Notes: generated by a model from the sequence alone, not told the origin. A DNA stretch of 64,000 nucleotides from Azolla caroliniana (GCA_043228905.1 JBHGNT010000003.1:19158001-19222000), one strand, 5' to 3'; positions 4,459-58,821 are shown, numbered from the stretch's first letter. Numbers and translations are program-made.

Positions 4459-4498
<40 letters not shown>

Positions 4499-4775
4499 CA
4501 CGAAGAGGTTGTTGCCTCTGTTGTAACCGCCGCTTGTGGCGAAGACAGTGAACAAGAGGTTGTTGCCTCTGTGTTCATCTATTGTATATTGTTACATAGT
4601 GATAGTTAGCAGTCAATGGATTGCCGTGGTTTTTCGCATGTTTGGGTTTTTTCCATGTAAACATCCTGTGTACTCTTCTCTTCATCGTGTCGTGCATTCA
4701 TTCCCCGTTTCTGTGTTTGATTCTAAGCTCGATTGTGGCCAAGCGTTGTTCATTGCAAGCGTGTAGTTCCTGTCA
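3968..4775 (+). repeat. 5' LTR of Copia A (808 bp)
   Basis: TG...CA termini, homologous to 20549-21474. TATA-like TATAAATA at ~4387, (GA)n tract and CCGG-rich tandem units. Confidence 0.95.
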
Positions 4776-4778
4776 AAG

Positions 4779-4790
4779 TGGTATCAGAGC
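4779..4790 (+). promoter_or_regulatory. Primer-binding site (tRNA-iMet) of Copia A
   Basis: TGGTATCAGAGC, 3 bp after the LTR end. Confidence 0.95.
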
Positions 4791-4805
4791 GAAACCACAC
4801 ATAAA

Positions 4806-5643
4806 ATGGACAAATCGTTGGGCGGCATGTTCAAGCTCACCGGCTCCAACTATTCAGTGTGGAAGTCGAAGATGAGGGACATACTCATGGTTAAAGATCT
4901 TTGGTTGCCGGTTCAGTTCGGGGACAAGAGACCGGACAAAATCAACGCCACGATATGGGAGGTGATGCACATGAAGACAACGGCGTACATATGGTGCTTC
5001 ATCGACATGAGTCTATACAACAACTTCAATGAAGAGAGCAAGGCTCATGAGCTCTGGGAGAAGATCCGCATTATGTTTCAAAACAAAAATGCTATTAATC
5101 AGGTTTCGGTATTTCGAAAGCTAGTAAGACTCTGGTACCAAGATGGCTCCACCATGGCGGAGCACATGAATGCCTTCCAAGGGCTGATCCACCAGGCAAC
5201 ATCATTGGAAGTACCTCTCGCCGATGAGGTACTAGCACTACTCCTGCTCGGTTCCCTCTCAGATAGCTGGGAGACGTTGGTTGTCACTTTGGGCAACGCC
5301 GGGCCGGAAGGGAAACAGTTATCCCTACCAAGAATGAAGTCGAGCTTGCTAGATGAGGAGGCGCGTCGGAAAGATAAGGATACGAGCTCCAACTCCAAAG
5401 CGCTCATTACCGAATCGGAACGCGGAAGACAAAGAAACTGTAGTCCCCAGAACCAGGAAAAGTCGGGGACATGGTCAAAGTCAAGGGCGAGGCCTACTTG
5501 CTTCTATTGCGGCGAGCCGGGACACTTCCACAAGAACTGACGGCATTTCCGAAAAGACAAGGAAACCGACGGTACCGATTCGAAGAGGACACCGGACCGG
5601 AACAGTAAAGACCGGAGGGGAACAGACCGGAAGGGAACGACGG
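4806..5643 (+). pseudogene. Copia A gag (UBN2-type gag plus CCHC knuckle), interrupted by element B
   Basis: ORF 4806-5540 MDKSLGGMFKLTGSNYSVWK...CFYCGEPGHFHKN*, with a premature TGA. Confidence 0.9.
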
Positions 5644-6253
5644 TGTCGAGGTATTCCTCGCGGATGCATGGGACGAGGCGGGACCTCGGGGGTCTTGTAC
5701 CGAAGAGCAAGAGAGAAAAGGAGAGGGGAAGAGACCCACAAGGTGCGAACGTAGATTCGCAGGGACACGGCCCTTCGACACAGAGACGCGAATGCGACAG
5801 CGACACAGAGAGACACGAATGTATGTAAATATATATATTAACAAACAAACAACAAGAAGCACGAAGTCTGTTACAACCGAACAGGCCGGCGGACAGATGC
5901 CGATGCCTGTTCGTAAACGCACAGAAAGGAAAGGGTAGGTTGGAGGTGCTGCCGGAAGCACTCGGGCATTCCTCAGAGCAGCGCAAGCCTCCCGAAAACC
6001 TGCACAGAAAGCAGCCACGGAGTTTGTGAGGCAGAGAGAGAGAGAAGCCTTCGCCTACAAACCGACAACACTTCGTCCTCCACTCTCCGCCCCTTTTTAT
6101 AGGCTAGGAAGGAGCCGTTTCCCCTTTACTTCCTACCTACCGAATCTACCTGCCTAGGATCTCCTATGTACAACATAAGGCGCACATGCATGAAGAGCCG
6201 GTTCCTACGCTCCGGTGCACCGATTCCGCTTGTGGACGGTTTTCTTCACGACA
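5644..6253 (-). repeat. 3' LTR of Gypsy B
   Basis: TGTCGAGG...CTTCACGACA on the + strand, direct repeat of 17326-17935. Adjacent purine-rich tract on minus (AGGTGGGGGCAGA, ~6254-6266). Confidence 0.95.
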
Positions 6254-6326
6254 TCTGCCCCCACCTAACCGCGCATTCACCGGCATGTGCCAAATTGAGT
6301 TGGGACGGAGAAAACCGGTCCAGCCT

Positions 6327-6764
6327 TTATTCCCCGCCCGTCGGTTCTTCTTCGGTTTCGGATCGTTCGTCGTCCCGGTCCAGGTTATCCGGATCCAGCT
6401 CGTCGTCGTGACGCTTCTTGAACGCTTTGATCCGCTTCCCAGCTACCAGTATCGCCATTCTCGTGCCGTCGAGTTCCGCCAGACGGTACGTCCCGTTGTC
6501 GTTGGCGCTTTGTACTACGTAAGGCCCGAACCACCTTCTCGCGAACTTCCGTGTCGCTCGGTGCTGGTTGTCGAGGCTGCTGTCGTAGACTAGCACCCAG
6601 TCACCTTCCTCGATCTTCTTCGGTCGGAGCCGGTGCGTCCGGTCGAACCGGGCGTTGTTCCCCGTCCTTGCCACCCGAAGCTTTTCCGCAGCCTGCTCCA
6701 CGTCCTCCGGTCTTCGCTCGAGCTGCCGTATGCGCGCCGTCAACAGTTCCTCCCGGCTCATCTC
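6327..6764 (-). pseudogene. C-terminal part of Gypsy B integrase
   Basis: ...GDWVLVYDSSLDNQHRATRKFARRWFGPYVV...GTYRLAELDG (GPY/F region). Continuous with 12097 once C is removed. Confidence 0.9.
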
Positions 6765-6769
6765 GTCTC

Positions 6770-7373
6770 TGTTGGGATTACGGTCCCTTTCGGATGGGAT
6801 GGTCGGATGTCGGAGATGAATGACGACAAGCCCGGTTTCGGTTTCGGAACCGGATGATGAAGATCCCGGTTACGGAGCCGGATGACGAATGTACCCGGAG
6901 AGAGATCCGGATGCGGGGATATATTCGTGAATATGTTTGCCAAGAGCCCTTGAGGCTATAGTTGTAAATAGCCCGAAAGTCATATGTGTATAAATATGAC
7001 TTAGGGCAAACAGTTTTAATGTTGCTACTCATTTTTTCTGTTTTTCCACTCAAGAGGAGTGAAGAGAGAGCAGCCGTGAGAGAGATAGAGCGTGAGAGAG
7101 GAAGAGGTCGACGCCTCTGTGTAATTCCGCCGCCTGTGGCGAGGACAGCGAGCTCAAGGTCGTCGCCTTGCAGCTCGCCATTGTATATTTCTCTGTGCAT
7201 AGTTTTGGTTTGGAGTCTTGTACTCCCGTGGTTTTTCCCGTCTAGGGTTTTCCACGTTAATCCCTGTGTATTCGTGTTCTTTCTCTGTGGTTCCTATTTT
7301 CTGCTGCATTGATTCGTGCTTACTCGGTTGTGGCCGAGTGGCGAAGGTTAATCGGAGCGTCGATTGCTCAACA
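6770..7373 (+). repeat. 5' LTR of Copia C
   Basis: TGTTGGG...CTCAACA, near-identical to 11488-12091. Confidence 0.97.
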
Positions 7374-7376
7374 AAC

Positions 7377-7388
7377 TGGTATCAGAGC
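7377..7388 (+). promoter_or_regulatory. Primer-binding site (tRNA-iMet) of Copia C
   Basis: TGGTATCAGAGC. Confidence 0.95.
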
Positions 7389-7403
7389 GAACTGCTGCAG
7401 AAA

Positions 7404-10400
7404 ATGGAAGGCGGCGGCAGCGGGCAGCCGGGGATGATGGTGCTGAATGCGCAGAATTACGCCGACTGGAAGATCAAGATGGAGGATCTTCTGATTGTTC
7501 GGGACCTGTACGAACCGATTGACAGGTCGGAAATACCGAAGGGGGTACTTGAGTCGGAATGGAGGCTTCTGAACCGGAAAGCCGTTGCAACCATTCGGCA
7601 ATACGTCGACGTGAGCGTTCTACAACATGTGGCGAACGACACCAACGCATATGAGATGTGGCGGAAGCTGTCGGGCCTCTACGAGAGAAAGAATGCGTTG
7701 AACCGGACCTCCCTGATGAGGAAGATAGTGAACCTCAAGTACCGGGACGACGAGAGTATGGTGGAACACGTAAGCACGTTCATGGGATTCGTGAATCAGC
7801 TTGCGGCGATCAAGTTCCCGTTGGAGGATGCAATGCAAGCCATCATTCTGATGTGTACATTGCCGGAAAGCTGGGAGAACTTGGTGGTGACTCTCAGCAC
7901 CTCCTGCACCGAAGATAACTTGTCCCTACAAACGGTAAAGACAAGTATTTTGAACGAAGAAGCGCGTCGGAGAGATAAAGAACCGGCCTCCGATCCGAAG
8001 ATGTTGTTTACCGAATCGGATCGGGGAAGACAACGGAACCGGAGTCTGCAGAGACGGGAGAAGTCGGGGACCCGGTCGCAGTCAAGAGGAAGACCCACAT
8101 GCTTCCATTGTGGGAAGCCGGGGCACTTCCGGAAGAATTGTCGGCATTACCGAAAGGACAACGGAGCCGACGACACCGATTCGAAGAAGTCACCGGAGAG
8201 AAACGGTGCATACCGGGGAGCCACGGACCGGAGAGGTCCGGATCGGCGAGGGCAGGACAGGAAAGGAACGACGGCACTCGCGGCAAGTGAGGAAGAAATC
8301 ATGCTCATCACCGAAGAAGGTGAACTAAACATTGCCGGCGATGAGACGACCTGGGTGGTCGATTCCGGAGCGTCGTTCCACCTGACCCCGGAAAGAAGAT
8401 ACTTCTCATCCTACACAGCCGGTGAGCATGGCTGTGTTCGGATGGGAAATGAAGGTACGTGCCGGATTGCCGGCGTAGGAGACGTGTGGTTGACAACCTC
8501 GACCGGATGCAAAATGCTGCTGAAGGATGTCAAACACGTTCCGGAGGTTCGATTGAACCTGATTTCGGCCGGGAGGCTAGACGATGAAGGCTACACAGGT
8601 AGCATCCGGAACGGCGTAATGAAGTTCAGCAAGGGGAGCCTGATAGTGGCTCGGGCCCGGAAAGTCAACACACTGTACCTGATGAATGCCCGGTTATGTC
8701 CGGAAGAGCTGAATGTGGCAGCCGACACTGCCGGTGAGCTGTGGCACAAAAGACTGTGCCACATGAGTGAGAAGGGGATGAAGAGGCTTGCAGAAGACAA
8801 CCTTATTCCAGTGAAGCATGTGCACCTGGAGAAGTGCACCGATTGCCTGGCCGGTAAGCAGAACCGAACCTCCTTCCACTCAAGGCCACCGACGAGACGT
8901 AGCGCACCATTGGAGTTGGTGCACACTGATGTGTGCCAGGTAGAAACGAAGTCACATGGCGGAGCCCAGTACTTCGTAACATTCATAGATGATCATAGCC
9001 GAAGACTGTGGACGGCACCGATGAAGACAAAGGACCAAGTGTTGTCCGTCTTCAAAGAACTCCACGCGAGAGTGGAAAGAGAATCCGGCAAGAAGCTGAA
9101 AGCGATACGAGCGGATAACGGAGGGGAATACCGGGGGCAGTTCGCGGAGTACTGTCGCTCGAAAGGAATCCGGCTCGAGTTTACTGTGCCGAAGACGCCG
9201 GAACTGAACGGGCTGGCCGAGAGGATGAACCGGACCATAATGGAGAGGGTCCGGAGTATGCTGGCGCATGCGAAATTACCCAAGGGGTTTTGGGCTGAGG
9301 CAATGTCGACAGCGACATATGTGATAAACAGATCACCCTCAGTACCTCTGGACGGAGACACGCCGCAGAGAGTGTGGACCGGTAGGGAAGTATCTTACCG
9401 GCATCTGAAGGTGTTCGGGTGTCTCGCATACGTGCATGTGGCAAAGGACCGGAGAGGAAAGCTAGATCCAAAGACCCGGCCATGCATATTCCTCGGTTAC
9501 GGCGACGACGAGTTCGGCTACCGAGTATGGGACCCGGTCGACAAGAAGATATTCAAGAGTCGAGACATCATCTTCATGGAGGACAAGACACTCGCCGACT
9601 GGGAGTCGGAGAAGAAGATGAAGAGCTCCAAGTCGACCGGTGAGGATCAACTCTAAGAGGAGCAGTCCCGACCGGCAAGGGACCAGTTAGCACTCGAGGA
9701 TCCGGCCGAAGACGATGAAGAAACAGAACCGGCCGAGGAAGATGAAACTGATACCGGAACCGGCCCCGATCCCGAAATGGATTCGGATGAAGAGGAAACG
9801 GAAGAGCCGGTTACCGAAGCTCCGGAACGGAGATATCCTCTAAGAGAGAGAAGGGTCCCCCGGAGATTTCCGGAACCAGAGCACGTGCTGCTAACCGACG
9901 AGGGGGAGCCGGAGAGCTTTGAAGAAGCAAAGCACGACACCCAGAGCCGCAGGTGGTTGAGTGCCATGCAGGACGAGATGGATTCCCTCCATGAGAACCA
10001 CACATATGAACTAGTGGAGTTGCCGAAAGGAAAGCGGGCACTTCGAAACAAGTGGGTGTTCAAGCTGAAACCGGGAGATGCCGGAAACCCCCCGAGATAC
10101 AAAGCCAGGATCGTGGTGAAGGGGTTTCAGCAGAAGAAGGGCGTCGACTTCGACGAGATATTTGCCCCAGTAGTGAAGATGACCTCCATCCGGACGGTGC
10201 TGAGCATAGCGGCAAGCATGGACCTCGAGGTAGAACAGATGGACGTGAAGACGGCATTCCTTCACGGTGACCTCGAAGAAGAGATCTACATGTAGCAACC
10301 GGAAGGATTCGAGAAGAAAGGGAAGGAGCACCTGGTATGCCGGTTGAAGAAGAGCCTTTACGGACTGAAGCAGGCTCCCCGGCAATGGTACCGGAAGTTC

Positions 10401-11477
10401 GACTCTTTCATGACCGACGAAGGGTACCTCAAAACGCAGTCCGACCACTGCGTGTTTGTGAAGAAGTTCGAAGGAGGAGACTTTCTAATACTCCTCCTGT
10501 ACGTGGACGACATGTTGATCGTCGGACGGGACCAGGTCAAGATACGGATGCTGAAGAAGGCTCTTCACCGAACCTTCTCAATGAAGGACTTGGGTCCGGT
10601 GAGACAAATACTAGGGATGCACATCATCCGGGACCGGAGCAAGAAGCAGTTGTGGCTGTCACAGGAGAAGTACGTGACAAAGGTGCTTAAACGGTTCAAC
10701 ATGTCGGAAGCAAGACCGGTCGGATCGACCCTCCCGGCAAACTGCAAGCTGTCCAGCAAGCAAAGCCCCAAGACAAAGGCTGAGAAGGAGGACATGATGA
10801 AAGTGCCATATGCCTCTGCCGTCGGAAGCCTGATGTACGCAATGGTGTGTACAAGACCGGACATTGGATACGCAGTCGGAGTGGTGAGCCGGTACATGAG
10901 CAATCCCGGCAAAGAGCATTGGAACGCGGCCAAGTGGATACTCCGATACCTGAAGGGCACGGCAAACGTGTGCCTCCGATTCGGCTCCGATAAGCCCGAA
11001 CTTGACGGTTTTACCGATTCGGATATGTCGGCTGATGCAGATACCAGCCGGTCCACATCCGGGTATGTGATGACCTATGCAGGGGGAGCCGTTTCGTGGC
11101 AGTCGAGGCTGCAGAAGACGGTTGCGTTGTCAACCACGGAGGCGGAGTACATGGCAGCTGTTGAAGCCGGCAAGGAAATAATATGGATGAAGGACTTCAT
11201 TAGAGAGCTCGGGATCCGGCAGGAGGAGTACCGACTCTACTGCGATAGTCAGAGTGCCATCCACCTTGCAAAGAACGCGGCCTACCATTCCCGGACGAAA
11301 CACATCCAGCGTAGATACCACTGGATCCGGGAAAGGATAGAAGACAAGGAGTTCGTGCTGACGAAGATCCACACGGACAAGAACGGGTCGGATATGTTGA
11401 CCAAGGTGCTCACACCCGACAAGCTGGAAGCATGCCGGAAGAGGATCGGATTGGAGAGACATCCCATGCCGAAGTGA
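7404..11477 (+). pseudogene. Copia C gag-pol polyprotein (Tnt1-like) with two in-frame nonsense codons
   Basis: Single frame with gag, CFHCGKPGHFRKNC, protease WVVDSGAS, GAG-pre-integrase LWHKRLCH, rve (VHTDVC...DNGGEY...AERMNRT), RT (LLLYVDDML) and RNase H. Stops TAA 9654-56 and TAG 10293-95. Confidence 0.93.
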
Positions 11478-11487
11478 AGGGGGAGTT

Positions 11488-12091
11488 TGTTGGGATTACG
11501 GTCCCTTTCGGATGGGATGGTCGGATGTCGGAGATGAATGACGACAAGCCCGGTTTCGGTTTCGGAACCGGATGATGAAGATCCCGGTTACGGAGCCAGA
11601 TGACGAATGTACCCGGAGAGAGATCCGGATGCGGGGATATATTCGTGAATATGTTTGCCAAGAGCCCTTGAGGCTATAGTTGTAAATAGCCCGAAAGTCA
11701 TATGTGTATAAATATGACTTAGGGCAAACAGTTTTAATGTTGCTACTCATTTTTTCTGTTTTTCCACTCAAGAGGAGTGAAGAGAGAGCAGCCGTGAGAG
11801 AGATAGAGCGTGAGAGAGGAAGAGGTCGACGCCTCTGTGTAATTCCGCCGCCTGTGGCGAGGACAGCGAGCTCAAGGTCGTCGCCTTGCAGCTCGCCATT
11901 GTATATTTCTCTGTGCATAGTTTTGGTTTGGAGTCTTGTACTCCCGTGGTTTTTCCCGTCTAGGGTTTTCCACGTTAATCCCTGTGTATTCGTGTTCTTT
12001 CTCTGTGGTTCCTATTTTCTGCTGCATTGATTCGTGCTTACTCGGTTGTGGCCGAGTGGCGAAGGTTAATCGGAGCGTCGATTGCTCAACA
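11488..12091 (+). repeat. 3' LTR of Copia C
   Basis: Preceded by PPT GAAGGGGGAG and followed by TSD GTCTC. Confidence 0.97.
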
Positions 12092-12096
12092 GTCTC

Positions 12097-15000
12097 TCCA
12101 GTCCACGGTTGCCCATGAGGAGATCGTACGTTCCATCAGCATGATCGGCTTCTGTCCAAACATGAGCTCTGCCGGCATGAATCCGGTTACCGAACTGTGC
12201 GTAGTTCGGTCTGCCCACAACGCGTAAGGCAACAATCGCGGCCAGTTCCTGACTTGACCTCCGCATGCCTGAACTAACGCCTTGACGATCGATCCGTGTC
12301 CGCGCTCCACCTTCCCATTCGCCTCCGGATTGTACACAGTGGTAAGCGAGAGCTTGACTCCTAGCCGGTCGAACAGCTCCTCGGCCTCTTCGACGTCCAA
12401 CTCCCCGCGATCAGGCACGATCTTCCCGACGCACCCGTACCGGCATATCACGTCCTCGATCAGGAACCGACATACGGCCGCGGTCGTTTTGTTTTGAAGG
12501 GCTCGGCCTTCTACTTGGTTCGTCAGATCTTCCCGAGCCAGGACCAGATACCGCATCTGTCCTACTCCCATCGGCATCGTCACCAGGTCTACCATCCATT
12601 TGAAGTGGATGGTCGGAGGGTACGTAGGGTGAAGCTCGTCCCGATGTCGGACTACGGAGTGCATCTGACAGCTCTCGCAAGTTGTCACGAACCGATGCAT
12701 GTCCCGGTACAGTCCCGGCCACCAGTACTTCCCCTTTATCTTCTCGAACGTGGCCCACGTTCCACGGTGACCAGCCCAAGGGCTGTCGTGGTAAGCCGTC
12801 GGCAGCTCCTCCTGATCTTCCTTCATCGCCACCACCCGGAGCGGGACGCCGTTCCTCTTCTTCGGGTGCTTCCATAAGTATCCGTCCAGGAGAAAGAATC
12901 AGTAAGCTTTCTTCCGAATCCGGTTGGCCTCATCCTTCGTCCATGACGCATCCGGCGTCATTGTCCTCAAAAATCCACCGATCTGGAGCCACTCGCCGTC
13001 GTACTTGCTCTCGTCGAAGTCGTTAAGTGCCGGAGTGCTCGTCCCATCGGTCGTCACGTACGCCGCTTCGAAGAAGTCCACGCCGTCTTCTTCGTCCTCC
13101 GAAACCATGTTGCCCTCGTCATCAAACCTCGCCCTCGAAAGCATGTCGGCCATGGCGTTGTCCTTTCCGGATATGTGCCGTATTTCCGGATCCAGGGACT
13201 TGATGTACGCTATCCACCTGAGCATCGCCAGGTCCGGTGTCGCGCATCCGGAAACCATGCCGAGAATTGGCAGGCAATCCGTCTCGATAATCACTTCTGT
13301 CCCGATCAGGTAGTCTTTGTCGGCCTTTACCGCCGAAACGATACCCCAGAGTTCGCGTTTAACCTGGGCATACCCTCGTTGTCGCTCACTGAGGACCTTC
13401 GCGCCGAATCGGATCAGGAACCGAATGTCGTCCTCGTCTTCTTGGTTGACGACCCATCCGATCCCGGTCGGACTCATATCCACCGTTACGTATACCGGGG
13501 TACCCTTCTCGTAGACAGCCTTCCGGAGCGCCGGCGCTGCCGCAAGAGCTTCCTTTAGCTTCCGGACCGACTCCGTGTGTTCGTCTCGCCACTCGAATTT
13601 TCGCCCCTTTTTCAGCAACCCGTATAGCGGCTCCGCAACGTGGGCGTAATGCGTGATCCATATGTGGTAGAACGCGCATGCCCCCAGGAACCTCCGAACT
13701 TCCGTAACCGAGCTACAGTCGGCCTTCATCGCGGAGATGGCTTCTACCTTTGCCGAAGACGGCTTCCGGCCATATGGTCCACATAGGTGTCCGACCACCA
13801 GGATTTCTGATTGCCCGAAGGCCGATTTCTCCCCGGAGAAGGTGAGCCTTGCATCCTCTAGCCTTTGTAGCACCTTCTCCCAGTCGTCGATGTGTGCTGC
13901 TACGAATCGCCGGCATCCGTCCGATCCGAGTGTTGCGTCCTTCTCTTCCACCGGGCACCCCTTGATCGGGATGTCGTCTAGAAATGGCATGGTGATGTCC
14001 GGGATGCAATCCCTCGGTACCTTGTTCATTGCATTCACCATGTGGGCCACCGAGTTGGTCCCTCCCTGTGGCAGGGTACACATTCGCACTAGGCCGAGGG
14101 GAGTTCGCATCGTCGTAATGTCTCTGCTCTCCACGGCTAGCTGGAACTGGTCGTACCCCGAGTATAGATCACCAACCGAGTAAATCGACCTTCCGGCGAA
14201 GGCCTCCGCGAACTCGTCTATGGTCGGTCCAATTCCTGCGTTCCGAATGGTCACTCTGTTGACCGGCTGCAGGTCTTGAATGAAGCGCATCGTTCCGTTT
14301 TTCTTTGGTACGGTAAACCATCGGTTCGAGTATGGGGCACTCGACGGTTCGAGAATGCCCATATCTACTTTCTGCCTCAATAGCTCCATCAACTTCGGAA
14401 TGTGAGCTCTCGATACCGGAATCAGCTTGAGATTCCACGGCACATGCGGTACTGTGAATATTACCATCGCCTCCACGATCATTGGGTCTACGCACCCGAT
14501 CTCTTCCGGTGAGAATGCGAAGGCTTTCCCGTGCCTTCCGAGCATTCTCCAAAACCGGTCTTCCTCCGCCGGCAGTAGGAACCCGCCCCCACCGATCTTG
14601 AGCTCCCAGAGCGTCCCGTCGGTGAAGGTGTATCCTATGCAGGCCGGATCTCGTAAACTGGGGTCCGACGCCACCCCTCTGATTCGGGACTCACTGCCTT
14701 CCGGTAAGGGTGTCGCGACCGGCCTTACCTTCCGGTCCACAGTCTTGTACTTCGTGTTAACTCGGGCCATCTGATCCGACTCGAGCCCCTGACTGAAGTC
14801 CGCGATGACTTCGTACATCTCTTCGGAACATACCGGTATCGTCCGGTCTTCGTTAAGGTCTTCTCCGGCTACCTTCCTCAGCATCCCCAAGGTGTCGTCG
14901 AAGGAGACCGCCTCCACGGCTCCGCTGATTTCCTCGTCCGGGCCAAGAACTCCGCACGCTCGAAGTCACTCCTCTGCCCTTGCCTTTTCTCGGCCAACGA

Positions 15001-17274
15001 TGCCGACCATTGCACACCCTCCGTCGTTGGAGAAGCAAAATTTCCTACCTATCGTACAAGGTATCTTCGGTTTCGGTTCTATCGTACAGTTGTGGGGTCT
15101 TTCCCGAGTGTCCGGACTGTCTCGGCCCCACGCCTTGGCAGCCCCCTCTAAAAATCCTCCCGATTCTCGCTACCGAGGGATTCGCGGTTTCGCTCGTGGT
15201 TCGGTCGCACCGTCAGAAATTGGACCGAACGGCGCCCGTCCTAGCTTTTGACCCTTGCGTAGGCCGAACCGTTGTCTAGCACCTTGGTCTCCATCCGCGC
15301 CGCCGTGATGTATGGTTCCCCTAATATGACCGGGTGCGAGGACGTCTCCTGTACGAAGAAGTGCTAGTCAATCTCGACGTCGCCAATCTTGACTCGCACG
15401 TTCGGGCAGGCCCCGTGCAGTTCCTCGGTGGCGCGCGTCGCCGCCCGTATCTTCCACCCGTGCTTGGTGGTGATCGGCCACTTTCCCTTCTTATAGAAGT
15501 CCATGGAAACATGTTTATTTCCGAACCGTGGTCCACCAATGCCACCACCGGTTCCTGAACATCTCCGATCTTTACCGGGGTCTCCGTGGTCACTCGGGCC
15601 CAGTGCGGCCTCGAATAGTGGCTCTCCGCCCACTCATCTTCCAGCACCATGTCGTCGATGTGCGTCGTCCGCACCTCCACCGGTCTTTCCGGTTCCGTCT
15701 CCGTCAACAGCCTCTTCCGTTTCACCAGGTCCACAATGGAGTCGTGAAACTCCTTCTTGGCGATCCCTAGCACCTCTCGCAATGACAGCTCCACTTTGCT
15801 GTCGAGGATCCGTTCTTCTAGGACCTTTCGTAGGTCCGTAGTCCTTTCTATTTCCGTCCCCAGTCGGTATTCGCCCTTCCTGGGGTTATCTTGCGAGCTG
15901 GACCCACCGGCATCGTTCCGTCGTTGCCCGAATCGGGTCTCGTACCGTTGTGAGGGCCCGGCCGCTCCGGCTTTCCCCACTCGTTTGTCTTCTACCAGAG
16001 CCTCGTAGTTCCGGGCAGGCGGCTTCTACGAAGCCCGTCTTCTCCTCGACCGGATCACTCCACTCGGTTATTTCCCGGACCCGTCTCTCAGCACGGTCCG
16101 TTTCATCTTTCCTTAGTCGTGCGCCGGCAAGACCTTCTAGCATTGCCGACCAGAATCCGTCTCTGCCCTCCTTTCGGGCCTCGCTGCCCCCGACCCGAAT
16201 GCCGGCCGACGCCGAGTAGTGGATGGCCTCTTCGTGTCGGGCCGCTGCCTCTTCCATCAGTCTCTTCATTCCTCCTCGCCCGTCATTTCGGTTTAGGGCC
16301 CTTCTGGTGTCGTCGGCGTGCACCCGGCCTTCCCACAGGTACACCACCCGGTTCCTCAACGCTTCTGCGAAATCGCCACAGTCCTTTCGGATGTGGCCGA
16401 CCTCGTCGCACCACATGCACCTGTTCCCTGCTACCGGTCATCGGTCACGAGCCGGTTCGCCGCCTTCCCTTCGAGTCTGGGCGATCTAGAGATCCTTTAT
16501 CGCCCGCGTCAACTCCTCTAGCACTGCTCCTCCGGACGAGCTACTGACCATGCCGGTCGAAGCCGGACCGGCTTCGAGCCATTCCCGGGTTTCTTCCCTT
16601 CGCCCTTGCGCTGCCGGTTCAAGCCTCCTTGCTGTGACAGAGCCCGCACCAGCCGCCCCGTTGTCAGCCCATTCTCGTCGTTTGTCGAAACGGCCACAGA
16701 CTCTCTTAACCGCAGCCCAGTCGGTCGTCAGCCCGTCTTCGGTTTCCAGTAAGGGGCCGACTTGATCCCGGTCCCGCTCGTCCACCGACTTGACGAATAG
16801 TAGGACCCGGCTCGTATCCAGAACGGTTCGGTCAAGCGCCGAAAGGCGCGCAAAGCGTTCTTCGAACTCCCGGAGGAGTGCCGACGCGTTTCTTCCCTTG
16901 CCAGGGAACTCCACCCATTCCATGAAGTCCCGTTTCGAAACCCGGAGCGCGTCGTCCAGCCCATATTTCTCTAGGAGTCGGCCTTCAAACTCCTCCCAGG
17001 TACGGCTCTCCGCCCGCACCTTGAGCACCTCCGCATGGATACTCGGCATCGCCACTCGAGGGAACCCGGCAAAACGCCTCTCTTCCAGAATGTCCCGCAT
17101 CAGCATTTCTGCCCCGTAGGAGGCCAAATACTTCGTGGCATCCTTTCCGCTGAACCGGCCGATCGTACCGACGACCGCCTCAATGGCTCTGTCGAGGACG
17201 CCGGAGCCCTCGCGTGCGCTCAATATCCGATCCACGGCCGAAGCCATGGCCTCCGCAAGATCCGACCCTTTCAT
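12097..17274 (-). pseudogene. Gypsy B gag-pol (gag, zinc knuckle, protease, RT, RNase H, integrase), frameshifted
   Basis: ORFs 16486-17274 (gag), 15886-16416 (CMWCDEVGHIRKDC), 15321-15980 (VALVDHGSEIN), 12899-14917 (RT PFLDD, RNase H), 12086-12835 (HHCC plus rve). Confidence 0.92.
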
Positions 17275-17309
17275 CTTCTGCTCTTCTGCTCTTCTGCCGC
17301 CCCCTGTAG

Positions 17310-17322
17310 GTCGGGTTCACCA
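17310..17322 (-). promoter_or_regulatory. Primer-binding site of Gypsy B, complementary to the tRNA-Trp 3' end
   Basis: Minus strand TGGTGAACCCGAC, 3 bp from the LTR. The + strand GTCGGGTTCACCA matches my recollection of the plant tRNA-Trp(CCA) 3' end. Confidence 0.8.
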
Positions 17323-17325
17323 AGA

Positions 17326-17935
17326 TGTCGAGGTATTCCTCGCGGATGCGTGGGACGAGGCGGGACCTCGGGGGTCTTGTACCGAAGAGCAAGAGAGAAA
17401 AGGAGAGGGGAAGAGACCCACAAGGTGCGAACGTAGATTCGCAGGGACACGGCCCTTCGACACAGAGACGCGAATGCAACAGCGACACAGAGAGACACGA
17501 ATGTATGTAAATATATATATTAACAAACAAACAACAAGAAGCACGAAGTCTGTTACAACCGAACAGGCCGGCGGACAGATGCCGATGCCTGTTCGTAAAT
17601 GCACAGAAAGGAAAGGGTAGGTTGGAGGTGCTGCCGGAAGCACTCGGGCATTCCTCAGAGCAGCGCGAGCCTCCCGAAAACCTGCACAGAAATCAGGCAC
17701 GGAGTTCGTGAGCCAGAGAGAGAGAGAAGCCTTCGCCTACAAACCGACAACACTTCGTCCTCCACTCTCCGCCCCTTTTTATAGGCAAGGAAGGAGTCGT
17801 TTCCCCTTTACTTCCTACCTACCGAATCTACCTGCCTAGGATCTCCTATGTCCAACATAAGGCGCACGTGCATGAAGAGCCGGTTCCTACGCTCCGGTGC
17901 ACCGATTCCGCTTGTGGACGGTTTTCTTCACGACA
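17326..17935 (-). repeat. 5' LTR of Gypsy B
   Basis: Direct repeat of 5644-6253, adjacent to the PBS. Confidence 0.95.
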
Positions 17936-17939
17936 ACGG

Positions 17940-20538
17940 CAATCGCGGCAAGTGAAGAAGAGTTGATGCTCATCATCGAGGAGAGTGAGAGAAACCTTGC
18001 CGGCAACGAGATGACCTGGGTGGTCGACCCCGGAGTGTCGTTCCACCTTACCCCGAACCGGAAATGTTTCTCATCCTACTCAACCGGTGATCACGGCTAT
18101 GTCCGGATGGGGAATGAAGGTACATGCCGAATTGTCGGCATAGGAGACGTGTGGCTGACAACACCAACCGGATGCAAGCTGCTGTTGAAGGATGTCTGAC
18201 ACATTCCGAATGTTCGTCTGAACCTGATATCAGCCGGTCGGCTAGATGATGAAAGTTACACGGGTAGCATCCGGAATGGTGTTATGAAGTTCAGCAAAGG
18301 GAGCCTGATTGTGGCTCGGGCCCGGAAGGTAAACACGTTGTACCTGATGAATGTTCGGTTATGTCCAGAGGAAGGGAACGTGGCATCTGACACTACCGAT
18401 GAGCTGTGGCACAAAAGGTTGTGTCACATGAGCGAGAAGGGGATGAAGAGGCTTGCAGACGACGACCTCATACCAATGAAGAACGTGCACTTGGAGAAGT
18501 GCACTGATTGTCTGGCCGGTAAGCAAAACCGGACCTCCTTCCGACCAAGGCCACCGATGAGACGTAATGCACCACTGGAGTTGCTGCATACTGATGTGTG
18601 TCAAGTGGACACGAAGTCACATGCGGGATTGTAGTACTTCGTGACATTCATAGATGACCACAGCCGGAAGCTGTGGGCCACACCGTTGAAGACGAAGGAT
18701 CAGATGCTATCCGTCTTCAAAGAGCTCCACGCGAGAGTGGAAAGAGAAACCGGCCGGAAGCTGAAGGCGGTTCGAGCAGATAACGGAGGTGAATACCAAG
18801 GGTAGTTCGAAGAGTACTGTCGCTCAAAGGGAATCCGGCTCGAATTTACCGTGTCGAAGACGCCGGAACTAAACAGGCTGGCCGAGAGGATGAACCGGAC
18901 TATAATGGAGAGGGTCCGGAGTATGCTGGCGCATGCAAAACTACCCAAGAAGTTTTGGGCTGAGGCACTGTCGACGGCGACATATGTGATAAACAGATCA
19001 CCCTCAGTACCCTTGGACGGAGACACGCCACAGAGAGTCTGGACGGGTAAGGAAGTGTCGTACCGGCATCTAATAGTATTCGGGTGTCTTGCGTACGTGC
19101 ATGTAGTTAAGGACCGAAGAGGAAAGTTGGATCCAAAGACCCGGCCATGCATATTCCTCGGTTACGGCGACGATGAGTTCGACTACCGAGTGTGGGACCT
19201 GGTCGAAAAGAAGGTATTCCGGAGTCGAGATATTATCTTCATGGAGGACAAGACGCTCGCCGACTAGGAGTCAGAGAAGAAGATAATGAACTCCGAGTCG
19301 ACCGGTAAGGATCGATTCTACGATGAGCAGACCCAACCGGCAAGAGACCGGTTAACACTCGAGGAACCAGCCGGTTACGGTGAGGATACCGAACCGGCAA
19401 AAGAAGAAGTAGAGGAAGCTGAAACCGGAACCAGCCAAGACCCCGAATCGGATTCGGATGAAGATCAAATAGTGGAGCCGGTTGCCGAAGGCCAAAGACG
19501 GAGATGTCCTCTTAGAGAGAGAAGGGCCCCCCAAAGATTTCTGAATTCAGAGCATGTGCTCCTGACCGATGAGGGAGAGCCAGAAAGCTTCGAAGAACCG
19601 AAGGATGACACCCACAGCCGCAAATGGTTAAGTGCCATGCAGGATGAGATGGATTCCCTGCATGAGAACCATACGTACGAATTGGTGGAGTTACCGAAAG
19701 GAAAGCGGGCACTCCGAAACAAGTGGGTGTACAAGTTGAAACTGGGAGATGCCAGAAACCCCCTGAGATACAAAGCCAGGATTGTGGTGAAAGGGTTGCA
19801 GCAGAAGAAGGGCGTGGACTTCGACGAGATATTTGCCCCGGTAGTAAAGATGACCTCCATCCGGACGGTGCTGAGTATAGCGGCAAGCATGGACCTCGAG
19901 GTAGAGCAGCTAGACGTGAAGATGGCATTCCTTCACGACGACCTCGAAGAGGAGATCTACATGCAGCAACCGGAAGGACTCGTGGAGAAAGGGAAGGAGC
20001 ACCTGGTATGCCGGTTGAAGAAGAGCCTATATGGACTGAAGCAGGCTCCCCAACAATGGTACCGGAAGTTCGACTCCTTCATGACCGATCAAGGGTACCA
20101 CAAGACGCAGGCCGATCACTGCGTGTTTGTGAAGACGTTCAAAGGAGGTGACTTCCGTGGCAGACAAGGTTGCAGAAGACGGTTGCGTTGTAAACCACGG
20201 AGGTGGAGTACATGGCGGTTGTGGAAGCCAGCAAGGAAATATTATGGATGAAGGACTTCATCGGAGAGCTCGGTATCCGGCAAGATGAATACCGGCTCTA
20301 TTGCGACAGTCAAAGTGCCATCCACCTTGCTAAGAATGCGGCCTACCATTCCTGGACGAAGCATATCCAGCAAAGGTATCACTAGATCTGGGAAAGAGTA
20401 GATGACCAGGAGTTCGCGCTGACGAAGATCCACATAGCCGAGAACGGGTCAGATATGCTAACCAAAGTACTGATACCCGACAAGTTGGATGCATGCCGAA
20501 AGCGGATCGGACTAGTAAGACATCCCATGCCGGAGTGA
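17940..20538 (+). pseudogene. Copia A pol (PR, INT, partial RT, RNase H) with stops and a ~610-bp deletion
   Basis: Colinear with C pol. Multiple TAG/TGA stops. The RT YVDD region is missing at the junction ~20153-20156. Confidence 0.92.
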
Positions 20539-20548
20539 TGGGGGAGTT

Positions 20549-21474
20549 TGTTAGGAAACATGTCCCTCCAGATGGGAAGTGAGAAGAACAGTGCTGATAA
20601 GAAACTCGGCCGAGGCCTATCGGCCTCGGCCAAAACCGGATGTGGAGTACCCGGCATCGAAAGACCCGATCAGCCTCAGCCGAAACCGGATGTGGAGTAC
20701 CCGGCATCGAAAGACCCGGTCAGCCTCGGCCGAAACCGGATGTGGAGTACCCGGCATCGAAAGATCCGGTGAGAACCGAATGAGTAGTACCCGGCAAGAG
20801 CCGGATGGTGAAGACCCGGTGAGAACCGGATGAGTAGTACCCGGCAAGAGCCGGATGGTGAAGACCCGATGAGAACCGGATGAAGAGTACCCGATACGGA
20901 AGACCCGGTGAGAACCGGATGAAGAGTACCCGACTATGGAAGACCCGGTGAGAACCGGATGAGTAGTACCCGGCAAGAGCCGGATGGTGAAGGCCCGGTG
21001 AGAAGTGCTCACCGGATGAAGGCACATATTCGTAAATATGTTTCTGAGAGTCCATTGGGGCTATATTTGTAAATAGCCAAAAAGTCATATTAGTATAAAT
21101 ATGACTTAGGGCAAACTTAGTAGTTGTTGTCATTCTTGTTGGCGCAAGATTAGAGCGCAACAGTGTACAGAGAGAGATAGAGAGAGAGAGAGAAAGACAC
21201 GAAGAGGTCGTTGCCTCTGTTGTAACTGCCGCTTGTGGCGAAGACAGTGAACAAGAGGTTGTTGCCTCTGTGTTCATCTTTTGTATATTGTTACATAGTG
21301 ATAGTTAGCAGTCAATGGACTGCCGTGGTTTTTCCCGTGTTTGGGTTTTTTCCACGTAAACATCCTGTGTACTCTTCTCTCCATCGTGTCGTGCATTCAT
21401 TCTCCGTTTCTGTGTTTGATTCTAAACTCAGTTGTGGCCGAGCAATGTTCATCGCGAGCGTGTAGTTCCTGTCA
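20549..21474 (+). repeat. 3' LTR of Copia A (926 bp)
   Basis: Homologous to 3968-4775, with extra 50-bp tandem units. Confidence 0.95.
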
Positions 21475-22394
21475 GAAACATCGTTTTTTGCAACGACGCA
21501 GCGAGGAACTAGCCAAGGGGGACTTCTCGGGCGAGAATCTACCATTGGTCGTCGTCGTCCCCGAGAAGACCGTTGTCATGAAGGATTCCGACTACTATGA
21601 GAAAAGGGGGCAGGATGCGCGTGAACGTGGGTGTGCACGGATGCACACTAATATATCGTTATGTACAAACGTTTGTAAATACTTATGTGCATTGAATACT
21701 AGGTAGAGTGATTTAATAAAGTACTTTACAACCCACACGTATAGTGAGGAATTAGAGATATGATGTGAGAAAATCGAGGAGAGAATCTGAGTGAAAAGTG
21801 GTTGTCTTTTTCGTTTTTGGAGAACAAAGTGTTGCCGAACTAAGCTTTGCAAGATCCTTCCTATTCTCCGTCTTCCAGTTTTCCCTTTTGTCGTGTTGTG
21901 AGGCCTCTGTTTCACGTTGGTAGCCTGTGTGCTCCCAATCAAAGGCTCACTAGTGTCTACGTGTGTGTGTTTCTGATGAGCTCGAAGCTCTTTTGTCGGC
22001 CGTGTCTGGTTATAATCTTTTTTGTTCTCTCTATTAATCATTACTTCGTTAAGTTTCTCAGTGTGCTTTGGGCTTCCCCGTGTTCTTGTCTCTTATCAAT
22101 TCCTGTCATGTTGTGTATTCGAGCGAGTGAGGCCGAGAGCTCATCGTTGCCAACTGACATCCGGTCCGGAACAATACGCGTCTCCGAGCCCGTGCGCTCA
22201 CCATCTACCATCCGAGAACCGATCCGGACCGGATACGTGACCGGTAACCGATTTGGCGAAGATATCCGGACAACCTTCCTACTCTCACCGGGACCTTGGT
22301 TCGAGACTCTCGTGGTCCCGTCCAAGTTTCAACACATCCACGCGGAAATCCGTGTGGCCCCCATTCTCGTTCGCGCTTCCGGTCAATTGCTGAC

Positions 22395-22830
22395 CCATAA
22401 AGCATAGGGTGGGAGTCTCGGCCAGTGGCCGACCCACCCGTCAAATACCCTCACGATCTCCTTCACGATTGGCCCGTGTCCGCGCTCGAACTTCCCATTT
22501 GCTTCCGGATTTTACGGTGTCGTGAGGGAAAGCTTGAGCCCTAGTCGATCGCATAGCTCTTCAGATTCTTGCGCGTCCAACTCCCCTCGATCGGACACCA
22601 TCTTACCCACACACCCATACCAGCATACGGTTGTGGTCGTCTTGTTCGTCAACGCTCAACCATCCACCTGGTTCGTCAGTTCTTCTCTCGGAGCATCAGG
22701 TGGCTCATCTGCCCCACCCCCATCGGCATCATCACTAGGTCGACCATCCATTTGAAGTGAATGTTCGGCGGGTAGGTCGGGTGCAGCTCGTCACGGTCCC
22801 GGATTCCATAATGTTTCACTACTTGGCACA
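22395..22830 (-). pseudogene. Integrase fragment homologous to Gypsy B integrase
   Basis: RDRDELHPTYPPNIHFKWMVDLVMMPMGVGQM...GCVGKMVSDRGELDA...NPEANGKFERGHG...PYALW. Confidence 0.8.
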
Positions 22831-23029
22831 TGACGGAGGATGTGCGGTTTGGTGGGGGTGGATGTCGTGAAGGAATCTGGCTACTAGGGGAAAAGGAGCC
22901 CATATGCGCATGAACGCGGGTGTGCACAGATGCACACGAAAATGTCGTTATGTACAAACATATGTAAATACTTATGTGCATTGAATACTAGGTAGAGTGA
23001 TTTTATAAAGTGCTTCACATCCCATACAT

Positions 23030-25230
23030 TGTTGCGGATATCCGCGTGTACATGTCGGCTTGGGCGGAACCACAAGGTTTCAGAATAGGGAGACAGATGG
23101 TGGAGGTCTCGACCCTTTGGCTTTCCACTCGCGTCGGCTTCTGGTTGGATCGGTATATAGATCGATATCCCGTTCCGGATGGATCAACCTGGATCGGCCT
23201 CTGGCCGACGAAGATTCTGGGTTCGATAAGATGCCTAACCATGAACAAGGACCCAATTGATAAAAGGTGAAAACAGAGAAGAATATACAAAAATATTTTA
23301 TTTTTTTAAATGTTTTACAACGAATCAGTTTACATGCCTTGAATCCGGTGGCTATTACAAAACAATCAGCTAATGCAACAATGTTAGGAAATGGGAATCG
23401 GCAAAGGCGAGTCAAGTGGGCTCTCGGGACCGCGACATCCACCGTTGGTCACACCCCGAGGACGATGGAGTGTTCCTGTGCCCTTCCTTCTCGAACCGGC
23501 CGTCACGTTGTCGCAAAATCCCGCGCTTGCATGTCGGATCCGGGCGGGACCACCGGGACATGGACCAGGAGGGAAGGAGTTTCCAGAAGGCCGAATCGTC
23601 CGGAGCCAACTACGTTGCTGGCCGGATTGGTTCTAGATGGTATTCGGGGAAGACCGATCCAGACGATTCCGGAAGTGGCCCAGAAGCGGCCCAAACTCTT
23701 GAAGGAAGAGAGTGTGCGCATGCGTATCCACGCAGCCCTCCTGCCCGTATATACAAGGGCCTCAAAAGAAGCACGGGCCACGGCCCAGTTAACCATGCCT
23801 GCGCTCACGCACACACACATATACACACCAGCTACGATCGGCGCATTTGCACCAACTCACTACACATGCACCCACACTCAGATACCTAGACGCCTACGCT
23901 GCCTCTCGAGACACACGCACCCGCTCACGTATGCGGCGTTCGGTGCGACGCCGGTTCCACTCAGTCCGTAGCAACAACCTCTCGTCGCCAAGCCACTAGT
24001 TGGGAGCACACGAGCTCTTCGCACGAGTGGGGCTTGCACGACGGAGAGGAGGCCTCAACATAGGATCTTCGAACACACGTCTTGACCTAACCAATAGCAC
24101 CTCGGGACAACATGGACACACACACACACAGATGTAGTGTGGGAAGACAACATACACAGAGAGGAAGAAAGGAGTGAAGACAACCACACATCACCCGACA
24201 CAATGAATGCACGCACCTGCATAGCAAACAAACCCTAACAGAGAAACAAAAGCAAAGGAACAACCGGAAGACAAGAAGAAACAACCCTAGCTTCCTCTCC
24301 TTGACACAAGAAGTACACAAAGACGAGTAAGAACAGAATCCTATCAATAAGAAACAAAAATGGAACCAACAAGTGGGAGCCTATGGAACCTCAAAAATGA
24401 GACCCTTTTACAAGATACACTCCCTTCTTTTTATAGGACAAGGAGAGGGATGCGTAACAATGTGGGATAAATCCCGCTTTACATGGGATTCTCTGTCCTG
24501 AATTAATTATTGTTCGGCGCCATAAAGGCGCCCCTCCCCTATCTTAACACATTTTATACAAGGGTAAGTGCACATGATGCACTCCGCCGATGCCATTAAC
24601 TTCCCCGGGTTTCTCACTATGGTCATTAATCTTCACGACAACGCGAAACACTCACCATCGAGGGGAGGAAACCGAACAACCATGTGCCACAACCGGAATG
24701 CTGAAGAGCCACCATTGTAGAAACCCCAAGCCAAAACCAACCCCTCACACGAAAAAGAAGAAGAGAGTAACACCAAAACCCTAAACCACATAAACCCTAA
24801 CTCACATGAAGAAAACTGAAACCCTAAATCTCCCACGAACTCTGACAAGATGAAGAACCAAATGGAACACCTAACCTCCACTCAAGGCACGGAACCAAAC
24901 CCACAAGACGATAACAAAGAAGACCTAAAATGAAACCCTAAAATGAAACAGGGTAAAGAAGACCAAAGTTGAAACCCTAAGAAAATAAGAATAAGAAAAT
25001 TACCAAACCCTAGATCTAAGTGGTACGCCCTCCTAATTCAAAATGGGCAATCCCTTAACAAGAGACCCCTCCTTCCTTTTATAGTCCGAGGAAAGGATAT
25101 TACAATGTGGGACAAATATTCCCCTTTTTATTTTGTATACATTTTCGAATGTAAATGTGCACATGGTGCACATTGCCGACGTTGCCCATTCCACTCGATT
25201 TTCTCACCATAGCCGGCAATCTTCACGACA
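23030..25230 (-). mobile_element. Solo LTR (TGTCG lineage) inserted in the 3' LTR of X
   Basis: TGTTGCGG...CTTCACGACA. TSD ACAT/ACGT, and the uninterrupted LTR1 reads CCCAC-ACGT-ATAG at the equivalent site. Confidence 0.75.
23509..24640 (-). mobile_element. Solo LTR (TGTCG lineage) nested in the previous solo LTR
   Basis: TGTCGC...CTTCACGACA. Flanks ACGT/ACGC. Partly homologous to 1270-2008. Confidence 0.65.
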
Positions 25231-25917
25231 ACGTATAGAGAAGAATTAGAGGTATGATGTGAGAGAATCGAGGAGAGAATCTAAGTGAAACGCGGTTGTT
25301 TTTATAGCTGATGTAACGGTCTCACCAATCCTCGAGCTATAAAAGGAGGAGAGAGGATCCACGTTTTTGGAGAACGAAGTGATGCCGGACAGAGCTCCGC
25401 AGGCTTCCTTCCTATTCTCCATCTTCCGGTTTTCCCTATCGTTGTGTTGTGAGGCCTCCGTTTCGCGTTGGTAGCCTGTGTGCTCCCGATCAGAGGCTCA
25501 CGAGTGTCTGCGTGTGTGTGTTTGTAGCGAGCTCGAAGCTCTTTTGTCGGCCGTGTCCGGTTGTAATCTTTCCTGTTTTCTCTATTAATCGTTAGTTTGT
25601 TGAGTCTCTATGTGTGCTTTGGGCTTCCCCGTGTTCTTGTCTCTGATCTATTCCTGTCGTGTTGTGTATTCGAGCAATTGAGGCCGAGAGCTCATTGCTG
25701 CCAACCTGCATCTGGTCTAGAACAATACGCGTCTTTGAGCCCATGTGCTCACCATTCGCCATCCGAGAATCGATCCAGACCAAATACGCGACCAGTAACC
25801 GATCCGGCAAAGATATCCGAACAACCTTCCTACTCTTACTAGTTCCTTGGTCCGAGACCCACGTGGTCCCCCCCCCCCCCAGTTTCAACACATCCACACA
25901 AAAATCTGCGAGACCGT

Positions 25918-27410: not shown

Positions 27411-27526
27411 TAATAAAAAACAAATTCCAATTCTTTCATTACGGAAGGCAATAATTTCAATTTTTCGATTTCTTTGGTTGATTTTTGGATTCAACGTGGA
27501 AGGCACTGTCCCATGGGCATGCCAGG

Positions 27527-37460: not shown

Positions 37461-37495
37461 CTTTTAGTTGAATATTGAACTACCACTAGTTAGAT

Positions 37496-39493: not shown

Positions 39494-39496
<3 letters not shown>

Positions 39497-57556: not shown

Positions 57557-57596
<40 letters not shown>

Positions 57597-58820: not shown

Positions 58821-58821
58821 G

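What the first reader, a model, noticed from the sequence alone, without database searches (positions are those of the whole stretch)
5640..25917. Gypsy lineage with 4-bp TSDs that appears to integrate specifically at CpG
Seen: insertions with TGTCG...CGACA-type LTR ends are flanked by 4-bp (not the usual 5-bp) duplications with a central CG. The cases are B ACGG/ACGG (5640/17936), X CCGT/CCGT (21570/25914), solo LTR ACAT/ACGT (23026/25231, with the empty site ACGT visible in the sister LTR), solo LTR ACGT/ACGC (23505/24641), solo LTR ATGG/ACGG (58818/59939), and the right flank ACGG at 2009. Every mismatch is a C>T or G>A change of the kind expected from methylcytosine decay. The Copia and chromovirus insertions in the same window have ordinary 5-bp TSDs without CG (GAAAY, GTCTC, AATTC, CAGAC), which serves as an internal control. 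All six landed inside other retroelements. Knowledge: sequence-specific 4-bp TSDs are known for insect errantiviruses (e.g. ZAM, CG-rich), while plant LTR elements normally give 5 bp with weak preference. Inference: an integrase that reads NCGN, possibly methylated, would steer insertions into CpG-rich young TEs and away from AT-rich genic space, giving chromodomain-independent safe-haven targeting.
Basis: partly seen in the sequence, partly recalled or inferred. Interest (0 to 1): 0.82.

Follow-up and report, generated by a model that had tools for sequence, protein, structure and literature searches.

The report
Phygy retrotransposons inserting at CG sites
These plant jumping genes really do insert almost only at four-base sites centred on CG, but they most likely belong to the Phygy lineage, for which that habit was described in moss in 2019, and nothing here shows that methylation or a safe-haven strategy is involved.

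Summary
Five Gypsy-type insertions have 4-bp duplications and a sixth has one flank left; 9 of 11 copies carry a central CG, and three empty-site or reading-frame checks fix the length at 4 bp. Four control insertions have 5-bp TSDs without CG. Related LTR families in metagenome contigs gave NCGN in 78 of 85 distinct flanks (about 3 expected), mostly ACGT; TCGA was absent. But this is known: Neumann et al. 2019 report Phygy as 4-bp TSD, 100%, NCGN. Element B matches Phygy in domain set (no chromodomain, no aRH), has a tRNA-type PBS, and is colinear with Physcomitrium proteins (up to 67% identity in the protease); a tree against REXdb references could not be run. The methylation and safe-haven reading is not supported: flanks are no richer in CG than random window DNA, 36 of 83 are CG-poor, and three of four controls also nest in retroelements. 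Methyl-dependence remains untested. Small additions: the ACGT-led refinement, several LTR families sharing it, and a lineage-wide change (DRGE/D) at the integrase loop that contacts target DNA in foamy virus.

The parts
5644..17935 (-). Element B: full-length, decayed non-chromovirus Ty3/gypsy (Phygy-type), 6,965 bp net of a nested Copia
   Evidence: LTRs 98% identical; RT, RNase H, integrase, DUF4100; no chromodomain or aRH hit; length
5640..5643 (+). TSD of B, left copy ACGG
   Evidence: empty site
17936..17939 (+). TSD of B, right copy ACGG
   Evidence: empty site
5644..6253 (-). 3' LTR of B (610 bp; element strand TGTCGTGAAG...CCTCGACA)
6254..6270 (-). Polypurine tract of B
   Evidence: same tract in 29 of 120 related loci
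6330..6764 (-). Integrase C-terminal part of B (weak SH3-like hit; ends 57 bp before the PPT, no chromodomain, no env)
6770..12091 (+). Control: young Copia nested in B's integrase, 5-bp TSD GTCTC (6765/12092)
12097..12898 (-). Integrase zinc-binding and core domains of B, with DRGE at the second catalytic Asp
12902..14965 (-). RT and RNase H of B
15175..17316 (-). gag, DUF4100 and protease region of B, broken by stops and frameshifts; colinear with Physcomitrium patens proteins
17310..17322 (-). Primer binding site of B, 13 nt, 3 nt after the 5' LTR; complementary to a plant tRNA 3' end (tRNA-Trp from recall)
   Evidence: matches the miR894-type tRNA fragment listed in PMC5846777
17326..17935 (-). 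5' LTR of B
21574..25913 (+). Element X: internally deleted copy, LTRs ~85% identical, TSD CCGT/CCGT (21570/25914), B-like PPT at 22846-22862, inverted integrase fragment at 22460-22803
23030..25230 (-). Solo LTR 1 inside X's 3' LTR, TSD ACAT/ACGT (23026/25231); empty site ACGT at 21737
23509..24640 (-). Solo LTR 2 inside solo LTR 1, TSD ACGT/ACGC (23505/24641)
58822..59938 (+). Solo LTR 3 inside a chromovirus-type RT, TSD ATGG/ACGG (58818/59939)
1291..2008 (+). Left-truncated LTR of the solo-2 family; right flank ACGG (2009-2012) in a Gypsy integrase
3968..21474 (+). Control and host of B: older Copia, 5-bp TSD GAAAT/GAAAC (3963/21475)
57288..57905 (-). Control: Copia solo LTR in the chromovirus-type integrase region, 5-bp TSD AATTC (57283/57906)
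55686..60319 (-). Control and host of solo LTR 3: chromovirus-type Gypsy remnant, 5-bp TSD CAGAC (55681/60320)

Best explanation
These are decayed copies and solo LTRs of what is most likely the Phygy lineage of Ty3/gypsy retrotransposons, whose insertions leave 4-bp duplications centred on CG, likely because the integrase itself reads the CG step while bending the target, probably whether or not it is methylated. Shown: 4-bp stagger; central CG; outer bases biased to A first and T/G last, with T first and A last avoided; no chromodomain or aRH; colinearity with Physcomitrium proteins. Inferred: lineage membership (no tree with REXdb references); membership of the three solo LTRs (terminal similarity only); that selection is made by the integrase at the cleavage site (4-bp intasomes need a bendable central pyrimidine-purine step, PMC4422553, and here only CG among the four such steps is used); that the CA/TG exceptions are later CpG deamination. 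A candidate determinant, untested, is the loop after the second catalytic Asp (DRGE/D in place of foamy-virus DQGA).
For: Window TSDs and empty sites. 78 of 85 distinct flanks NCGN at one LTR end and 17 of 19 at the other. Majority flank ACGT in 4 of 4 runs laid (20, 27, 19, 12 contigs). Central step CG 78, CA 3, TG 1, TA 0 of 84 against 2.8, 5.9, 6.2, 5.1 expected; ACGT 36 against 4.9, TCGA 0 against 9.9. Phygy described as 4 bp, NCGN, tRNA-Trp PBS, no extra domain. 39 of the 120 listed hits of the gag-protease search are Physcomitrium patens proteins; up to 67% identity to B's protease half; B's group is sister to a Physcomitrium clade, support 82/81. Best PDB match is foamy-virus integrase, E 1.5e-17; acidic residue three after the Asp in 169 of 170 homologues. 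Precedents for CG-centred integrases: ZAM (PMC2527525 abstract), Ginger1 (PMC2836005 passages).
Against: REXdb Phygy sequences could not be read, so RT-RH-INT membership is untested; the protease tree has 112 columns, no Athila/Tat/Selgy outgroup and an unstarred fork. B (6,965 bp) is shorter than the Physcomitrella range of 7,656-9,968 bp. The PBS's tRNA was not identified by a tool. 7 of 85 flanks are not NCGN (4 look like CpG decay, 1 has no LTR similarity beyond the 20-mer, 2 unexplained); two older LTR ends seen in passing have CCAG and GCAG. Only 3 of 9 apparent solo LTRs in the contigs have matching 4-bp flanks (0 of 9 match at 5 bp), which I attribute to assembly chimeras without proof. 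Nothing here separates 'methylation-blind' from 'methylation-preferring'.
Confidence: 0.8

Rival explanations
1. The integrase prefers methylated CpG, which steers copies into silenced repeats and away from genes without a chromodomain.
For: CpG-context transitions are frequent in the window's elements (B LTRs 6 of 94 CpG-context sites against 1 of 513 others; Copia A 21 of 96 against 8 of 645), so repeats here are probably methylated. All six window sites are in, or probably in, retroelements; 40 of 85 outside flanks show some repeat evidence. Phygy was reported enriched at centromeres of a liverwort (PMC12885004, passage).
Against: Decay is post-insertion, and my CpG-context count is inflated by construction (CG in either copy counts). 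Flank CG density is flat with distance (0.033-0.037) and resembles random window DNA; 36 of 83 flanks have density 0.02 or less. Three of four control elements are nested too. ZAM selects CGCGCG in Drosophila melanogaster, which (recalled) lacks canonical CpG methylation. Short-read assembly under-samples repeat flanks, which weakens this counter-evidence.
Confidence: 0.12
2. The elements are a separate non-chromovirus lineage that converged on NCGN, not Phygy.
For: No tree with labelled Phygy, Selgy or Tat references; B is shorter than the published range; Selgy and TatI also make 4-bp TSDs and TatI uses tRNA-Trp.
Against: Colinear Physcomitrium homologues at up to 67% identity; no aRH (TatI has it in 100%); NCGN is reported for Phygy alone.
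Confidence: 0.06
3. Only DNA bendability matters: any central pyrimidine-purine step would do, and CG dominates by chance or host composition.
For: 4-bp retroviral intasomes favour central YR steps and avoid T first / A last (PMC4422553 section 6); the outer-base bias here follows that rule.
Against: CA 3, TG 1, TA 0 of 84, all below expectation, against CG 78; retroviral enrichment of YR is only about 63% above chance in that paper.
Confidence: 0.015
4. Boundary artefact: the TSDs are 5 bp, or the CG belongs to the LTR.
For: X's right end is degenerate; 6 of 9 apparent solo LTRs in contigs have mismatched flanks.
Against: Three empty-site or frame checks give 4 bp; LTR ends are fixed by PBS and PPT, which follow the same termini without CG at these positions; first and fourth bases vary freely.
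Confidence: 0.005

Closest known systems
Phygy, non-chromovirus Ty3/gypsy of Physcomitrium patens (Neumann et al. 2019, PMC6317226: passages, section 3 parts 2-3, Additional files 2 and 5 read; files 1 and 3 too large to read)
   Same: 4-bp TSD, NCGN preference, no chromodomain or aRH, polyprotein filling the internal region, tRNA-type PBS, colinear gag-protease homology with Physcomitrium proteins.
   Different: Another host (nearest named RT homologues are Riccia and Adiantum, 68-75%); B is about 0.7 kb below the published size range; the paper's text gives only NCGN, whereas here ACGT and ACGG/CCGT dominate and TCGA is absent (per-element TSDs in their unread Additional file 1 may already show this).
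Phygy in nesting survey (Jedlicka et al. 2019, PMC6911290, passages) and in the liverwort Apopellia (PMC12885004, passages)
   Same: 4-bp TSDs with a GC-rich centre and AT-rich outer bases; Phygy mostly 4 bp; Phygy nested in Tcn1 chromoviruses, as solo LTR 3 here sits in a chromovirus-type RT; lineage not confined to Physcomitrium.
   Different: Neither passage set tests methylation or names the integrase determinant.
Ginger1 DNA transposons (Bao et al. 2010, PMC2836005, passages)
   Same: Gypsy-type integrase, 4-bp CG-centred TSD (CCGG 75%, CCGT/ACGG 24%), TGT termini.
   Different: DNA transposons with inverted repeats in animals; CCGG rather than ACGT is the top site.
ZAM errantivirus of Drosophila (Faye et al. 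2008, PMC2527525, abstract)
   Same: LTR element whose integrase selects a CG-rich site and binds it directly.
   Different: Insect element with env (recalled); target CGCGCg; B has no room for env.
4-bp retroviral intasomes, PFV and MLV (Serrao et al. 2015, PMC4422553, abstract and sections 6, 14)
   Same: 4-bp stagger, central pyrimidine-purine step, T first and A last disfavoured; PFV integrase is B's best PDB match.
   Different: Their preference is weak and covers all YR steps; here it is near-absolute for CG, and the Ala188-equivalent position is acidic or deleted.

Membership tests
Phygy | Ty3/gypsy domain order with no chromodomain and no aRH | tested here: met
   Pfam scans of B's ORFs and of intact homologues P0122 and P0133 give protease region, RT, RH, INT only; integrase ends 57 bp before the PPT. 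The stretch 14966-15323 of B was not scanned itself.
Phygy | 4-bp TSD | tested here: met
Phygy | NCGN target preference | tested here: met
   9 of 11 window copies; 78 of 85 and 17 of 19 flanks of related LTRs
Phygy | PBS complementary to tRNA-Trp (81% of elements) | tested here: inconclusive
   13-nt PBS matches the miR894-type small RNA, described as a tRNA fragment; that this is tRNA-Trp is recalled; no tRNA gene found to confirm
Phygy | Clusters with REXdb Phygy in RT-RH-INT trees (the primary definition) | not testable with these tools
   REXdb FASTA too large to read. Surrogate: protease-half tree of 39 rows puts B's group sister to 10 of 11 Physcomitrium rows, 82/81, no outgroup lineages
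Phygy | Length 7.7-10.0 kb (descriptive range from one species; the authors call size insignificant for classification) | tested here: not met
   B is 6,965 bp net of the nested Copia; not treated as defining
TatI (4-bp TSD, tRNA-Trp PBS) | aRH domain between protease and RT | tested here: not met
   No PF13456 hit in B's RT ORF or in full-length homologue P0133
Selgy (4-bp TSD) | No target-sequence preference; about 5 kb; tRNA-Ala PBS | tested here: not met
   Strong NCGN preference; the paper names Phygy as the only exception
Chromovirus (Tcn1 and others) | Chromodomain at the integrase C-terminus | tested here: not met
Errantivirus (ZAM-like) | env ORF between pol and the 3' LTR | tested here: not met
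   57 bp between the integrase stop and the PPT
Methyl-CpG-reading retroelement | Preference for methylated over unmethylated CG at integration | not testable with these tools
   No methylome or biochemistry; no MBD or other reader domain among Pfam hits

The most novel reading that the evidence does not exclude
The Phygy integrase, through its lineage-specific DRGE/D loop or C-terminal domain, reads 5-methyl-CpG directly at the cleavage site, giving chromodomain-free targeting of silenced DNA and making the enzyme a sensor of methylation.
Probability: 0.12. Interest if true: 0.75.

Novelty: new member of a known kind. Interest (0 to 1): 0.25.

Why it matters
The core claim is in print, so the value is incremental. 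The data extend near-absolute CG targeting to several LTR families in another seed-free plant, sharpen NCGN to an ACGT-led motif, and point to an integrase loop that could be tested. Phygy is a tractable case for the open question of how some Gypsy-type integrases gain base-specific targeting; if methylation proved to matter it would be a new targeting route.

Tried and rejected
Of 120 loci, 29 were PPT-side ends and 6 were duplicate flanks, dropped before the count of 85; L047 (no LTR similarity beyond the 20-mer) was kept in 78 of 85 and dropped in 78 of 84. At least 79 of the 80 loci tabled and all 40 further ones come from one series of assemblies, so they are not independent studies; their LTRs are mostly 64-75% like B's. 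In one search, 16 of 37 loci examined gave no confident second LTR end. Identifying the PBS tRNA: ARAGORN on the window and on 31 viral loci plus L111 found nothing. The ESM Atlas gave no answer. Cluster look-up gave no organism names. The RT and integrase searches listed no Physcomitrium protein among their best 120. Paper searches for a test of methylation dependence (listings only) showed none for Phygy; only PMC6317226 held both 'Phygy' and 'NCGN'. PMC7466625 (passages) and PMC6839031 (passages) added nothing on TSDs of this lineage. Host identity was not determined: Riccia and Adiantum are equally close in RT. No structure or complex prediction was run. The 5-bp and boundary-artefact readings and the generic-bendability reading were tested and rejected.
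Full report
Observation. Self-alignment and Pfam give a nested stack: an outer Gypsy remnant (protease near 1200, integrase from 2013) holds a Copia (3968-21474), which holds element B (5644-17935, minus strand, LTRs 98% identical), which holds a younger Copia (6770-12091). Element X (21574-25913) carries a solo LTR (23030-25230) that carries another (23509-24640). A third solo (58822-59938) sits in a chromovirus-type RT. A left-truncated LTR ends at 2008. Nine of the eleven TSD copies have a central CG; the other two are ACAT and ATGG.

Length of the duplication. Three checks do not depend on the LTR ends. The sister Copia in the window and 32-39 contigs in each of four runs show B's empty site with one ACGG. 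X's sister LTR has one ACGT at 21737. At solo 3 the host RT frames on the two sides are in phase only if four bases were duplicated. The four control insertions have 5-bp TSDs without CG. Caveats: X ends in GCGAGA and its 5' LTR end is damaged; the ACGT/ACGC difference is outside the CG and of unknown direction; the ancestral state is shown only for ACAT.

More than chance. 29 were PPT-side ends and 6 duplicates; 78 of the remaining 85 flanks are NCGN against a background of 3.4%. At the other LTR end 17 of 19 are NCGN. These LTRs are mostly 64-75% like B's, and 16 of 85 flanks match other DNA of this window, so they come from related families in a close host. In runs holding the window's own DNA the majority flank is ACGT in 4 of 4, and one contig shows two LTRs separated by CCGC-GCGG. 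Leaving out L047, the central step is CG 78, CA 3, TG 1, TA 0, other 2 of 84; among NCGN sites ACGT is 36 (4.9 expected), ACGG/CCGT 20 (8.1), ACGA/TCGT 1 (14.4), TCGA 0 (9.9). Against this: only 3 of 9 apparent solos have matching 4-bp flanks, none at 5 bp, probably through chimeric assembly; two older LTR ends have CCAG and GCAG, two others ACGT and ACGG.

What the element is. B has gag, DUF4100, protease, RT, RNase H and integrase, with no chromodomain, aRH or env, a PPT at 6254-6270 and a 13-nt PBS at 17310-17322 that matches a plant tRNA 3' fragment (tRNA-Trp from recall, not confirmed). Named homologues are from Riccia and Adiantum, and the gag-protease search lists 39 Physcomitrium patens proteins among its best 120, colinear with B and up to 67% identical in the protease half. 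A 112-column tree of 39 selected rows sets B's group beside a clade of 10 of 11 Physcomitrium rows at 82/81 support, without outgroup lineages. X has a B-like PPT and an inverted integrase fragment 71% like B's. The three solos are tied in by their termini only; the window holds at least five LTR families, not one.

What is known. Neumann et al. 2019 state that Phygy elements have an insertion preference to the NCGN motif, and their Additional file 5 lists Phygy as 186 elements, 4 bp (100%) (NCGN), PBS tRNA-Trp 81%, no extra domain. Jedlicka et al. 2019 report GC-centred, AT-flanked 4-bp TSDs and Phygy nested in Tcn1. Phygy is also named in a liverwort. Ginger1 transposons and ZAM are further CG-centred Gypsy-type integrases. 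Their Additional files 1 and 3 could not be read: the first may already hold the ACGT bias, the second is needed for a true membership tree.

How it likely works. A 4-bp stagger needs a sharp bend at the central step, and 4-bp retroviral intasomes favour YR there and avoid T first and A last. The outer-base bias here follows that rule, but of the four YR steps only CG is used, so base reading is inferred on top of bending. B's integrase best matches foamy-virus integrase. The Ala188-equivalent position, a neutral compact residue that touches target DNA in retroviruses, aligns with Glu in B and is acidic in 169 of 170 homologues (rows include cluster mates). The register is uncertain by one residue, so the small residue may instead be deleted, and Ala188 contacts bases outside the TSD; this is a lead only.

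Methylation and safe haven. Repeats here show CpG decay (my context rule inflates the contrast), but that follows insertion. CG sites are about 4-9 times denser in the young elements than in the genic middle of the window, so a passive bias is possible. The flanks do not show it: CG density is flat with distance, averages 0.033 against 0.040 for random and 0.061 for CG-anchored window positions, and 36 of 83 are at 0.02 or less. 40 of 85 flanks carry some repeat evidence. Three of four controls are nested as well. Short-read assemblies lose repeat flanks and one window is not a genome background, so steering is unsupported rather than excluded. My searches (listings only) showed no test of methylation dependence for Phygy.

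Earlier notes of this scan held nothing on Phygy with NCGN; one on fungal NCGN elements pointed me to Ginger1, which I checked.

Verdict. Real, well supported and largely known: most likely a new member of Phygy. Interest 0.25.

Noticed in passing
window 27500-27530: Just before a likely LTR start (TGTTATCC at 27527) the outer Gypsy host has no purine tract but a stretch ending in GCATGCCA plus 2 nt, resembling the 'tRNA 3' end in place of the PPT' that earlier notes describe elsewhere in this genome. tRNA identity and LTR not verified.
   Followed up: partly
window 22358-22862: X's internal region is an integrase fragment inverted relative to its LTRs and PPT, and its PBS is gone, yet the whole is flanked by a matching TSD: rearranged after insertion or mobilised as a scrambled copy.
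   Followed up: partly
run X1, joint 17935 to 17326: Two B-type LTRs separated by only CCGCGCGG, as if two insertions hit adjacent NCGN sites 4 bp apart (one contig).
   Followed up: no
window ~39400-48700 (minus) and 37468-37900 (plus): A calcium-dependent protein kinase gene (kinase and EF-hand exons) and a CAP/PR-1-like ORF in AT-rich, strongly CG-depleted DNA (CG o/e 0.33 over the kinase gene).
   Followed up: partly
P0205: A distant homologue (53% in RT core) has DUF4100 and a C-terminal PHD finger after the integrase: a possible chromatin reader in a sister group.
   Followed up: no
window 34139-37341 and 61977-63700: Two or three LINE-type RT remnants; the first has an 84% identical 1-kb repeat of its 3' part.
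   Followed up: no
window 54833-55644: hAT-like transposase remnant (C-terminal dimerisation domain) next to the chromovirus-type element.
   Followed up: no
window 61263-61672: About four tandem copies of a 104-bp unit, 93-96% identical.
   Followed up: no
L019, L074: B-related LTRs with a PPT on one side and ...TATGGTGGA, neither NCGN nor PBS, on the other; possibly a deleted derivative or tandem form.
   Followed up: no
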